Positions 15,001 through 18,248 of a DNA stretch of 64,000 bases are shown piece by piece. The stretch lies in the NCBI RefSeq assembly GCF_002854065.1, contig NZ_CP024147.1; one strand, given 5' to 3'. How positions within the stretch are numbered: position 1 is the first letter of the stretch; every line of letters begins with the position of its first letter. Made by a program: the position numbers. This DNA is from Escherichia coli (GTDB lineage: Bacteria; Pseudomonadota; Gammaproteobacteria; Enterobacterales; Enterobacteriaceae).

Positions 15001-18000
15001 GTCAAGCCCCCCTTCCCCGGTTAATGAGGCTGGAGCGCTTTCTGGTTGTTCTGGTTCTTCTTCAGTGAAAATCGAGTTCAGTAATTTACGAACATCATCA
15101 GTGGCAGATTCGTGGCGGGCAAGTACATTGGCATCCAGCGTAAACCCTGCCGTCGACTGATTAGCTGGTACAGATGAAACGAGAGCAGTTTCAGTTACGG
15201 AATGCTGATGGATATTGCTTGATACGGATGAGGGATCCAACCCCAGGCTTGTATAAATCTTCTCAAGCTGTTTGATTTCGGCAGGCGTAATTCTGCCGTC
15301 AGAGCAAGCGACACTAACGATAACCTTACCCACAGCTGATTTTTCCGCTGCACCGAGTAACTCAATCCGGCTTTTCATTCCCGTCATATTCGCCGGGGTA
15401 TGAAGCTGCCACGTTAAATATGCGTGCAGAGAGCGCTTTTCATCATCGCTGAAGCTGACATTGTTGTTGATGGCATTCTCAAGCACTTTCTGTTCGGCTT
15501 GATCGAAAGAATTGTCAATCAAGGCGACTACCGAACCTAATCGGAGCGTCAATACAGCTGTGATAAATTCAGGAGAAGGAGAGAAGCGGCCACTTTCACC
15601 AGCAGGGAATAAAACAAGAACACCATCGACATCTGCTTTTACGTGGTGGTAATAGGGGTCAGGAGCCAGGCAGTACCCCATTTTCTGTGCAAAGGCCTGC
15701 ATCAAGTCGGCCTCTTTTTTGTTGATCTTTGCCGGACAGGTAGCATTCATGTGTGACCAGAAGTCAGCAACTGAAACTACTCCCCCCTTACTGAGGATCG
15801 CGTCATCAGCCCAGCGTTTGAATGCACTTAATATTTTATCTGCGCTTTCGTTAACGATTTCTGAAGGCAGCAACAAAATTGCAACGGTATCATTTGCTGA
15901 AGTGCCTTTTCTACCAAGGTAACGACTGTAAGCATCCAGTTCATCTGTGCATATATCAGCAAGAGTCATAAGCTTCTGAACAGGGCCTTTCAATGCACTT
16001 GGATCAGGCAAGTCAGGAACAGGAAGCCGAATACCTCTCAAACTGGGACTTGCAGGCGTGTAATCTAAACGCAGACGCGCTTTATTCGGCTTCACTACCA
16101 TCCCTTCACCGTATTTAAGGGTGTAACGCCGTTTAAATAGTGCAGCAAATTCTTTCGCACAGCGGCGGGCGGGGGTTCGTAATGAGTATTCAGTATGGTT
16201 TGTCACCCACGTCAGAGCCAGATCCGCTGGAACCGGGGCTCCTGCATCAACTGTCTTTGCCAGGATTAACCTGAACTGCATGCTATTGCTGAACTCTGAA
16301 TCATCGCTGAGAGCTGCTGCAAGATTTTCGTTCGGACGAAGAATGGACATCGCTTCAAGTAACTGGGACGAGTAGTTCCGGAATGATCTGTTTTCATTGA
16401 AAACAGATCTGAGACGGCAGATCTCTTTGAAAAGAGAATAGAACTCATCGTCAGATATATTGCTGTCCCTGCTGTCAACAAGCGCCCGTCTTTCCAGACC
16501 ATACAGATAAATAAAAACGTAACCAATTGGGCAAGAAGTGTCACATCTGTCGCTGGTAAGCCAACTCAGGTACGCGCCACGTGCTTCAGGTGAAAGTGAG
16601 GAATAACTGGGCCAATACCCTAATGAACTATCTTCGTAGATGTAAGATGTGGGGTATATCTTGAGCGTGTCGTCAATTAGCGATGCCTCGCTACTATCAT
16701 CATAATAACCGCCTGAGTTATGCCCGACAGGGTTCATTCGCTGTCCAAGATAGAAGTAGCCGCCGGTAATCTCTACCCCACCGACTGTGATCACCTCCCC
16801 CGGTAAAATCCAGCGAGCCAAAGCACCGGTAGTTTTTGAGAAATTCTGGCGTTGAGTGGCTGTTATACTGTATTCGGCATTCCGCCCGCCACTTAGTGTA
16901 AACGTAGCCAGATTGTCATCTTCGCTGTCCTCGTTGTGCATTACAGACTGATTTTTTTTGTTATTAGCAAGCCATTCTTTAGGTGGTGCTTTCACAGGAG
17001 CGGAAGTATAAGAGCCCGCGGACTTAGTTTTCTTCTTTTTGAAAAAAAGAATATAAATCAAATAAATCGCTACTATAAATATCCATAACTCCATGAGGCA
17101 ATAACCTTAAAAATAGCTTTTCACGAACACCGAAAGGATGACGATGGGAAGTGGATTAATCTTAAAATAATACTTCTAAATTACAAAGGTTAAAAGCAAA
17201 TCACAACCTTCCCGAACCTCCGCTTTTCGCTTGCTACGGTCCCTGCCGAGCATGAATCTCGTCTATGCCCAAAAGCGGACATTGATAATTCAGAAACCAT
17301 GGCAGAAGTGTGGTATCAGCCCCTCACCTGATGCCTGCCAGCATCGCACCTCGCTTCATGTCTAACCTCTCTGTTAGCCCGGCAGGGTCAATGGCTCTGT
17401 TGACAATGGTGCTACTTTCCAATACGTTAAGCACAAGGTTAGCGCGACCCGGCAGCTCACGGCCAAAGCGGAATGCAGCGCAGACTTATCAAATCTTTTT
17501 TGGTTAAGTGTCTTTGATTCTTATGATTCGTGAGCACATAGGACAGATAAGAGACTTAAACCATGAAACAAATCCCCACATGCGCTGAAGCAAAAGCCCA
17601 CGCCAAATACCTTTCACGGTCGCTCAATATCAATCTAAGCTACGCCCGGGATGCAGTGGCATTACGTTATAACTACCATAACTGGTCGGAACTCAGCACA
17701 GTATTTGGTCAGCTTAGCTGATAAGTACATGTCGTGCTATGGCCTTGCCAGTCATGAAGAGAAGCGTGTTTTTAGCCAGCTTCTGGCACCATATATCGCA
17801 GAATTGCAAAATGTCATTCATCCTGACCGCCATGTACGGAAAGCTTGATACGTAAGATTGCTGAAGGCCATATTTCCCGGGTATCTGGTAAAGTGATGTC
17901 GGCTGTAATACGTGAATGCGAGGATTTTCCTCCCACGACAGTTAAAGACATCATTGAACTGCTTGAATTTTATGATGAAACGGCCAGCCGGATATTAGCA

Positions 18001-18248
18001 GGACACCACCGGCAGATCCCGACCAATAATCCCTTGCTGAAACCCTGGGTATTTGGTGTGCGCTTTTATGCCTATAACCACTTTAATGCCAAGCTGGTCA
18101 CCATCTGTGATCTTCCGCCAACATGCCTCTTCTGAACTCTCCCGACGTCAACAAAACCCCCTCTAATCCCTTATATATCAGGATTTCTTTGTATCCAGAG
18201 GCCAACCGCCTTCACCCCGTATCAAGTTACTTTTGGGGGTATAATTTA

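What the first reader, a model, noticed from the sequence alone, without database searches (positions are those of the whole stretch)
17563..18135. Frameshifted gene of unknown function immediately upstream of the defence-type operon
Three abutting ORF pieces in alternating frames (17563-17722, 17651-17848, 17845-18135) would encode a ~190-aa protein if two frameshifts were repaired. It lies between the promoter region of the TerB-ATPase-helicase operon and IS21 debris. It could be a decayed regulator or accessory component of the system.
Basis: seen in the sequence. Interest (0 to 1): 0.3.

Follow-up and report, generated by a model that had tools for sequence, protein, structure and literature searches.

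The report
Dead remnant of a neighbouring nuclease cassette
The "frameshifted gene" is real, but it is the broken first 60% of gene one of a separate two-gene cassette (an unknown ~300-residue protein plus a GIY-YIG nuclease) that lies beside the Shango anti-phage operon without belonging to it, so the locus is an ordinary pseudogene.

Summary
Observation confirmed. Window 17563-18135 holds three abutting ORF pieces in frames 1/2/1.

Ten E. coli genomes carry an intact 302-aa version (95% DNA identity). Against it, the window copy has:
- a +1 T insertion at 17719;
- a 1-bp deletion after 17836;

Past the break the DNA is a relic of a selC-type island end, followed by an IS100 fragment. The last nine codons of ORF 3 are therefore foreign.

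In intact relatives the gene ("A") is followed directly by a T5orf172/GIY-YIG nuclease gene ("B"). I saw this in E. coli, Providencia, Pectobacterium and five further contigs. B is absent from the window.

The A+B pair lies beside varying defence genes: Shango, Dsr1, TIR proteins, CBASS, a Gabija-like pair. It is next to Shango in only 3 verified E. coli genomes. About 442 E. coli genomes carry Shango, and Shango works as a cloned three-gene system.

So the remnant is not a Shango regulator or accessory. It is a fixed relic, identical in 159 of 5,426 E. coli genomes.

The intact A+B pair matches no Pfam, PADLOC, NCBIfam or PHROG family for A. It is a plausible but untested two-gene defence candidate.

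Interest is low for the locus and modest for the intact family.

The parts
17172..17562 (+). 5' upstream region of the A+B cassette. It is shared with intact cassettes whether or not Shango lies to the left. The left boundary of the cassette is at 17172.
   Evidence: L002 and L007 (no Shango) match the window only from 17172 to 18106. This stretch is 92.8-95.7% identical in five intact loci. The first 61 bp (17172-17232) persist as a stub next to Shango in strain W60.
17563..18106 (+). Pseudogene: codons 1-181 of a 302-codon gene ('A'), carrying two frameshifts.
   Evidence: DNA alignment A1. The conceptual repair gives 166/181 identity to WP_096002204.1. ORF pieces are listed. The same lesions occur in 159 genomes.
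17719..17719 (+). Frameshift 1: an inserted T that creates the TGA at 17719-17721 ending ORF piece 1.
   Evidence: Column 240 of alignment A1; sequence read.
17836..17837 (+). Frameshift 2: one base lost between 17836 and 17837 (intact GTGCCGG, window GTA-CGG). It restores the original frame.
   Evidence: Column 358 of alignment A1; sequence read.
18105..18307 (+). Foreign DNA at the break: the last 16 nt of tRNA-Sec (selC; CTGTGATCTTCCGCCA, 18105-18120) plus about 190 bp that lie between selC and the island integrase gene in other E. coli. It supplies the last 9 codons and the stop of ORF piece 3 (stop at 18133-18135).
   Evidence: 36-bp matches under tRNA-Sec annotation. 81-83% identity over about 203 bp in more than 1,500 genomes. 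Position relative to selC and the integrase in NEBExpress and C25. Alignment A4.
18313..18689 (+). 3' fragment of IS100 (IS21 family; C-terminal part of istB and the element end), sitting where the selC-type integrase gene would be.
   Evidence: 97.3% identity to the IS100 copy in E. coli A33. RefSeq annotates the same stretch as a partial ATP-binding protein missing its N-terminus.
11270..17094 (-). Neighbouring intact Shango operon, not part of the pseudogene: sngA 14785-17094, sngB 13465-14781, sngC 11270-13468.
   Evidence: PADLOC matches: SngA E=6.5e-103, SngB 1.3e-187, SngC 7.1e-277. Pfam: TerB_N, TerB, TerB_C, DEAD, Helicase_C.

Best explanation
Window 17563-18106 is a non-functional relic of gene A, the first gene of a mobile two-gene cassette. 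A encodes an uncharacterised ~300-residue protein. B encodes a ~268-residue protein with a C-terminal T5orf172/GIY-YIG nuclease domain.

In the ancestral island the cassette lay divergently next to the Shango operon. That arrangement survives in E. coli A33 and Eco_23-2667.

In the lineage represented by the window, a rearrangement removed the last 121 codons of A, all of B and the DNA beyond. It joined codon 181 to a fragment of a selC-type island end, which is itself cut by IS100. The remaining part of A carries a +1 insertion and a -1 deletion.

Shown: the lesions, the truncation, the A-B pairing and the variable neighbours.

Inferred:
- The remnant makes no working product. It lacks the most conserved part of the family (the REWD motif with E185, then W207 and G227) and it lacks its partner.
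- Shango does not depend on it.
- For the intact ancestor, my best guess is a two-gene defence or conflict module. A would be the sensing or regulating subunit and B the DNA-cutting effector. This part is untested.
For: Lesions and truncation.

Fixation: 159 genomes carry both frameshifts, 10 carry the intact form, and no intermediates were found. The missing 3' part of A and gene B are absent from carrier genomes, which show one place per genome covering only query 1-544.

A is a real family:
- 58 representative clusters of about 300 aa with end-to-end matches.
- Alignment A2 has nearly invariant Y169, E185, W207 and G227.
- The AlphaFold model is confident (pLDDT 92.6, pTM 0.91).

A-B pairing:
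- 1-nt spacer in E. coli, Providencia, Pectobacterium and L011.
- 4-nt overlaps in L017 and L029.
- B is split into two ORFs in L013 and L015.
- B passes the Pfam gathering scores for MUG113 (35.2 vs 22.3) and T5orf172 (28.6 vs 20).
- B keeps VYF, KIG, R191, E217, H221 and EWF across six homologues.
- Identities of B track those of A: A 86/75/73/37/36% against B 84/78/80/30/34%.

Independence from Shango: and the cloning experiments.

Defence-island company: CBASS plus a PLD protein, an OLD-family ATPase plus UvrD helicase, Dsr1, TIR proteins and restriction-modification.
Against: - No expression data exist. The cassette's own upstream region (17172-17562) is intact, and ORF piece 1 (52 aa) happens to encode the whole conserved N-terminal helical motif, so a small product cannot be excluded.
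- The relic sits next to Shango in 159 genomes. That could be read as retention, though clonal or island inheritance explains it.
- The order of the three lesions is unknown because no intermediates were found.
- The defence role of intact A+B rests only on neighbourhood and domain content. A has no hit in PADLOC, Pfam, NCBIfam or PHROGs.
- Only 8 of 13 sampled contexts pair A with a T5orf172 gene.
Confidence: 0.85

Rival explanations
1. One reading: the gene was a regulator or fourth component of the TerB-ATPase-helicase (Shango) system and has decayed.
Against: - In the eight T5orf172-paired contexts the gene travels with its own nuclease partner, and it is found next to other systems in other genera.
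- At most about 1% of Shango-bearing E. coli genomes have it intact.
- Sequence divergence is discordant across the Shango/cassette junction.
- Shango is active as three cloned genes.
- All Shango-linked copies belong to one family of related E. coli islands, so they count as one association event rather than repeated co-occurrence.
Confidence: 0.06
2. The remnant keeps a residual role. Either the 52-aa first ORF (the complete N-terminal helical motif) acts as a small protein, or the retained 17172-17562 DNA serves as promoter or 5' control region for the divergent Shango operon.
For: Piece 1 ends just after the conserved N-terminal motif. The cassette's upstream region is fully retained. Even the most reduced Shango islands keep 17172-17232. 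RefSeq annotates the 52-aa ORF as WP_001361538.1 in some genomes.
Against: - The 159 copies are nearly identical, so they carry no signal of selection.
- The stub-only islands show that Shango needs nothing beyond 17232.
- The consensus scan found no sigma-70-like site between 17102 and 17787 on either strand, which includes all of 17172-17562.
- Nothing suggests the N-terminal motif works on its own.
Confidence: 0.06
3. On the intact ancestor: A+B is not an anti-phage system but a selfish or maintenance module of the island. It could be a homing-type GIY-YIG endonuclease with a helper, or an addiction (toxin-antitoxin-like) pair.
For: - T5orf172 domains are typical of phage homing endonucleases. 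B matches PHROG families annotated 'homing endonuclease' and 'endonuclease' (PMC10448857 listed).
- In E. coli the pair sits at the edge of the conserved island backbone (Gp2/YagK, AlpA, zinc-ribbon genes) rather than inside the variable slot.
- It also occurs in conjugative-element contexts.
Against: - A homologues were not found in phage or plasmid collections.
- The pair has no target-gene context typical of homing endonucleases.
- Distant A relatives pair with an HD-domain or a DEAD-type helicase gene instead. That effector swapping is more typical of defence systems.
- The pair is repeatedly found beside bona fide defence genes.
Confidence: 0.3
4. The frameshifts are assembly errors or a programmed recoding signal, and the gene is in fact expressed whole.
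For: None beyond the near-perfect abutment of the three pieces.
Against: - The same two indels occur in 159 independent complete assemblies.
- Neither indel lies in a homopolymer or a slippery heptamer.
- Intact relatives are single ORFs.
- Even if read through, the protein stops at codon 181 plus 9 foreign codons.
Confidence: 0.01

Closest known systems
Shango anti-phage system (SngA TerB protein, SngB ATPase, SngC DEAD/DEAH helicase)
   Same: It is the immediate divergent neighbour. The junction with the cassette is the same in the window and in three E. coli genomes that carry intact A+B.
   Different: Shango is defined and validated as three genes. The pseudogene's family has no similarity to any PADLOC model. 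It occurs mostly without Shango, and Shango mostly without it.
T5orf172 / MUG113 branch of GIY-YIG nucleases (Pfam PF10544, PF13455)
   Same: The partner gene B of every close intact relative carries this domain with its conserved residues.
   Different: The domain is in the lost partner, not in the pseudogene. B's N-terminal 170 residues match nothing. No described defence system in PADLOC v2 matches B.
GNAT-fold acyl-CoA N-acyltransferases
   Different: - Foldseek finds nothing below E = 0.08.
- None of the 38 family members hits a Pfam acetyltransferase model.
- A 'QxxGxG'-like string follows a helix rather than the strand where GNATs bind CoA.
- The window copy lacks most of this domain.
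Gene remnants left by IS- or island-mediated deletions in E. coli tRNA-linked islands
   Same: The copy is truncated at a junction with mobile-element DNA, has accumulated frameshifts, and is inherited unchanged by a large clade.
   Different: Nothing unusual, except that the joined DNA is an attL-like end of a selC-type island lying inside an argW island.

Membership tests
Shango system (as an extra component) | Co-occurs with sngABC across unrelated genomes | tested here: not met
   It is adjacent to Shango only within one family of E. coli islands. Shango is absent from the flanks in Providencia, Pectobacterium, L011, L013, L015, L029 and five E. coli genomes. sngA is in 463 E. coli genomes against 10 with an intact A.
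Shango system (as an extra component) | Needed for Shango activity | not testable with these tools
   Published cloning used three genes only and gave protection. No experiment with A has been done.
Uncharacterised ~300-aa 'A' family (no Pfam or DUF number) | End-to-end homology, including the conserved C-terminal core (REWD with E185, W207, G227) | tested here: not met
   The window copy aligns over residues 1-181 only. The core lies beyond the break. It descends from the family but is not an intact member.
Uncharacterised ~300-aa 'A' family (no Pfam or DUF number) | Single uninterrupted reading frame | tested here: not met
   Two frameshifts, at 17719 and 17836/17837.
A+B two-gene cassette | T5orf172/GIY-YIG gene immediately downstream of A | tested here: not met
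   It is present in 8 of 13 sampled contexts of intact relatives. It is absent from the window and from carrier genomes.
GNAT acetyltransferase superfamily (for intact A) | Sequence match to an acetyltransferase family model | tested here: not met
   No Acetyltransf family appears among the Pfam hits of 38 members at E <= 0.1. The PDB profile search found none.
GNAT acetyltransferase superfamily (for intact A) | GNAT fold | tested here: inconclusive
   [not shown]
Known anti-phage defence systems (PADLOC-DB v2.0.0) | Match to any component model | tested here: not met
   Neither A nor B matches any family at E <= 1.
Programmed-frameshift genes | Slippery site at the shift, and the shift conserved in homologues | tested here: not met
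   The indels lie in AGC[T]GAT and GTGCCGG contexts. Homologues are single ORFs.

The most novel reading that the evidence does not exclude
The intact form of this cassette is an undescribed two-gene anti-phage or anti-mobile-element system, and the window holds its decayed copy. The cassette is a confidently folded ~300-aa protein with no family assignment and a weakly GNAT-like C-terminal domain, translationally coupled to a T5orf172 GIY-YIG nuclease. Distant relatives pair the same protein with an HD-domain or a DEAD-type helicase gene instead, as happens with swappable effectors in defence systems.
Probability: 0.35. Interest if true: 0.45.

Novelty: new member of a known kind. Interest (0 to 1): 0.2.

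Why it matters
For the window itself it matters little. It tidies the annotation:
- Two RefSeq 'hypothetical proteins' (WP_001361538.1 and WP_123863910.1) are pieces of one pseudogene.
- The Shango operon here is a self-contained three-gene unit.

The useful by-product is a lead. The intact A+B pair is rare, conserved across Enterobacterales and beyond, and embedded among defence genes. It matches nothing in PADLOC, Pfam (for A), PHROGs or the PDB. It is cheap to test by cloning from E. coli A33 or 47-1826.

The locus also shows how E. coli tRNA-linked islands swap and erode defence cargo: Shango, TIR proteins or Dsr1 occupy the same slot, and the A+B cassette appears in three states, from intact through pseudogene to a 61-bp stub.

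Tried and rejected
- Family scans of intact A gave only sub-threshold noise: Pfam, NCBIfam and PADLOC, all 38 members against Pfam and PHROGs. Weak hits to Glyoxalase_8 and PRK05973 on the N-terminal motif were not pursued as evidence.
- A profile search of PDB sequences found nothing meaningful. B alone against the PDB gave no hit.
- tblastn of A against the phage and plasmid collections found no match.
- The species-representative genome scan failed once for lack of conserved columns. With a closer alignment it found no relative. A systematic cross-genus census could therefore not be made, and context evidence rests on 13 sampled loci plus 10 E. coli genomes.
- Literature searches for T5orf172 together with defence found no description of this pair.
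- I asked whether the break at 18106 is integrase-mediated insertion into a secondary site. Only a 2-nt overlap (CT) is in register with the selC core, and the distal half of the gene is nowhere in carrier genomes. The mechanism is unresolved, and an illegitimate or IS-associated deletion is simpler.
- The promoter and terminator scan was uninformative.
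Full report
**1. What is at the coordinates**

All are on the + strand, in frames 1, 2 and 1. Searches give the three-frame translations.

The pieces lie between the start of a minus-strand operon (its first gene is 14785-17094) and IS21-family debris (an IstB C-terminal fragment from about 18313).

**2. The neighbour is Shango**

PADLOC models identify the operon:
- 14785-17094 is SngA (E = 6.5e-103).
- 13465-14781 is SngB (E = 1.3e-187).
- 11270-13468 is SngC (E = 7.1e-277).

Pfam supports this with TerB_N, TerB and TerB_C in SngA and DEAD/Helicase_C in SngC.

Shango is a published three-gene anti-phage system. It protected when cloned as three genes from P. aeruginosa PA14 (bioRxiv 10.1101/2022.11.11.516204), and it was reported in parallel from E. 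coli (bioRxiv 10.1101/2022.05.11.491447).

The whole region is an island next to tRNA-Arg(CCU) at 2593-2667.

**3. The pieces are a pseudogene of a 302-codon gene**

A megablast of 17100-18330 against 5,426 complete E. coli genomes found near-identical copies in about 160 genomes.

A more sensitive search also found a 95%-identical version in strain 47-1826. There RefSeq annotates one uninterrupted 302-aa hypothetical protein (WP_096002204.1), followed after one nucleotide by a 268-aa 'GIY-YIG nuclease family protein' (translations).

The three-way DNA alignment (A1) shows three lesions in the window:
- An extra T at 17719. It creates the TGA that ends piece 1.
- One base lost after 17836 (GTGCCGG becomes GTA-CGG). 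It returns the reading to the original frame.
- A complete loss of similarity after 18106.

Removing the T and padding the deletion gives 181 codons, of which 166 are identical to the intact protein.

The last 121 codons of the gene are missing.

**4. What lies beyond the break**

Window 18105-18120 is the exact last 16 nt of tRNA-Sec.

Window 18105-18307 is 81-83% identical to the DNA that runs from the end of selC to just upstream of the island integrase gene in more than 1,500 E. coli genomes. The annotated examples are NEBExpress and C25, and alignment A4 shows the correspondence.

From 18313 to 18689 the sequence is 97.3% identical to the istB end of IS100.

The truncated gene is thus joined to a fragment of the tRNA-proximal end of a selC-type island, whose integrase has been replaced by IS debris.

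Only two bases (CT) are shared at the junction. The distal part of the gene and its partner are absent from carrier genomes, which show one place per genome covering only the first 544 bp of the two-gene query. I read this as a deletion or rearrangement. Its mechanism is unresolved.

**5. The lesions are real and fixed**

A 161-bp probe spanning both frameshifts matches 159 genomes at >=99% identity and 10 genomes at lower identity. The same ten genomes hold the complete two-gene query. No intermediate state was found.

RefSeq annotates the fragments as separate hypothetical proteins (WP_001361538.1 and WP_123863910.1).

**6. The intact gene belongs to its own two-gene cassette**

I call the 302-aa protein A and the nuclease B. 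The sampled contexts of intact relatives are:

| Relative of A | Identity to A | Gene after A | Notable neighbours |
|---|---|---|---|
| Providencia | 86% | T5orf172, 1-nt spacer | ParAB, umuDC, anti-restriction |
| Pectobacterium | 75% | T5orf172, 1-nt spacer | PLD protein, CBASS operon with HORMA and AAA genes |
| P0004 (L011) | 73% | T5orf172, 1-nt spacer | OLD-family ATPase plus UvrD helicase (Gabija-like), a protein kinase |
| P0006 (L013) | 60% | T5orf172, split into two ORFs | integrase fragment, HNH protein |
| P0007 (L015) | 56% | T5orf172, split into two ORFs | none defence-related noted |
| P0009 (L017) | 37% | T5orf172, 4-nt overlap | short contig |
| P0011 (L029) | 36% | T5orf172, 4-nt overlap | type IV secretion genes |

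Counting E. coli as one context, that makes eight with a T5orf172 partner.

More distant members are followed by other genes:
- an HD_4-domain gene (P0020);
- a DEAD-type helicase fragment (P0025);
- an unassigned 283-aa gene (P0018);
- no obvious partner (P0013, P0037).

B passes the Pfam gathering scores for MUG113 and T5orf172. It keeps the expected residues in six homologues: VYF, KIG, R191, E217, H221 and EWF. Its divergence tracks that of A.

**7. The cassette is linked to Shango only sometimes**

I inspected eight of the ten E. coli genomes with intact A+B. Their left-hand neighbours are:
- a TIR protein plus a DUF3659 protein in 47-1826, GPEC79, Combat13F7 and 19A14;
- Dsr1 in PAR.

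To the right of the cassette the same backbone follows in seven of the eight: a roughly 265-aa hypothetical protein, then Gp2/YagK, AlpA and zinc-ribbon genes. In Eco_23-2667 an EmrE/Bcr efflux insert replaces the roughly 265-aa gene and the backbone genes lie inverted.

Pairwise BLAST shows that genomes without Shango share only 17172-18106 with the window, while Shango-bearing ones are colinear from about 9,600-10,900 to 18106. This fixes the left edge of the cassette at 17172, 78 bp upstream of the sngA start codon.

In Eco_23-2667 the Shango genes are 98.7-98.8% identical to the window, but the cassette is only 92.8-94.3% identical. That is a recombination seam between two independently evolving blocks.

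sngA is present in 463 E. coli genomes, 442 of them with at least 80% coverage. At most five of these have intact A+B and 159 have the relic. Others, such as W60, retain only a 61-bp stub covering 17172-17232.

Together with the cloning data, this argues that the gene was a neighbour of Shango, not a component.

**8. What intact A might be**

A belongs to a genuine but unnamed family:
- 58 representative clusters at 50% identity, nearly all about 300 aa with end-to-end matches.
- A conserved N-terminal helical motif (HAK...AQ..VA....C..W.EL).
- A conserved C-terminal core (YAYY, REWD, R.WF..YM.GY, Q....GY.G).

No Pfam, NCBIfam, PADLOC or PHROG model matches A. No PDB sequence matches it. It has no phage or plasmid homologue.

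AlphaFold2 with the 38-sequence alignment gives a confident model (pLDDT 92.6, pTM 0.91). It has a helical N-terminal half and an alpha/beta C-terminal domain.

The window copy ends inside the first beta-hairpin of this domain. It lacks E185, W207 and G227.

**9. Interpretation**

The remnant is an inert pseudogene (confidence about 0.85-0.9). It has lost its conserved core, its reading frame and its partner.

Two residual-function ideas cannot be excluded without expression data, but nothing supports them:
- a 52-aa product that corresponds to the N-terminal motif;
- use of the retained upstream DNA by the divergent Shango promoter.

For the intact ancestor, the most likely role is a two-gene conflict module with B as the nuclease effector and A as its sensor or regulator. 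The points in favour are:
- tight A-B coupling;
- co-variation of A and B;
- repeated placement among defence genes;
- apparent partner swapping in distant relatives.

A selfish endonuclease or addiction module of the island is a serious alternative. None of this has been tested experimentally.

**10. Verdict**

The locus itself is ordinary. The intact A+B pair is a modestly interesting, cheaply testable candidate system.

Noticed in passing
window 18105-18307: A relic of the tRNA-proximal end of a selC-type island lies inside an island integrated at argW (tRNA-Arg CCU, 2593-2667). It comprises the last 16 nt of tRNA-Sec plus the roughly 190-bp integrase-upstream arm, at 81-83% identity to the sequence next to selC in more than 1,500 E. 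coli genomes. The integrase gene that should follow is replaced by an IS100 fragment (18313-18689). One copy of a repeated TTTTGGGGGT(A/G) motif present in the selC versions is missing here.
   Followed up: partly
window 19220-19987: A 768-bp IS1 copy is absent from the otherwise 99.9%-identical region of E. coli AMSCJX02, where a 9-bp overlap marks the target duplication.
   Followed up: partly
window 6768-9128: The gene annotated in AMSCJX02 as a single 787-aa 'type I restriction enzyme HsdR N-terminal domain-containing protein' appears in the window as separate 159-aa and 459-aa ORFs. It may be another pseudogene in this island. The left part of the window (1-10150) is only 98.9% identical to AMSCJX02, against 99.9% for the right part.
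   Followed up: no
L002, L007-L010, L026-L028 (E. coli islands related to the window): The slot immediately left of the A+B cassette is a variable cargo position. It holds Shango, a TIR protein plus a DUF3659 protein, or Dsr1. The right-hand backbone stays constant in seven of the eight loci: a roughly 265-aa hypothetical protein, then Gp2/YagK, AlpA and zinc-ribbon genes. L009 is the exception, with an efflux insert and inverted backbone genes.
   Followed up: partly
[not shown]
   Followed up: no
L033 1070-1903; L020 1602-2453; L018 1575-2426: Distant members of the A family (29-30% identity) are followed by an HD_4-domain gene, a DEAD-type helicase gene or an unassigned 283-aa gene instead of a T5orf172 nuclease. 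This suggests exchangeable partners.
   Followed up: partly
window 17172-17232: This 61-bp stretch at the cassette's left edge survives at about 88% identity next to Shango in genomes that have lost the rest of the cassette, such as W60. It could belong to the Shango promoter region or simply mark a recurrent deletion end point.
   Followed up: partly
window 22976-26500: This is a dense patch of mobile-element wreckage. It holds an IS3-family transposase pair (22976-24132, minus strand). By eye from the translations, it also holds reverse-transcriptase-like ORF fragments (about 24171-24850) and a transposase split into two ORFs (24992-25659). IS66-family pieces follow from about 25959. Annotation of the matching AMSCJX02 region lists a frameshifted transposase and a frameshifted IS66 tnpC.
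   Followed up: no
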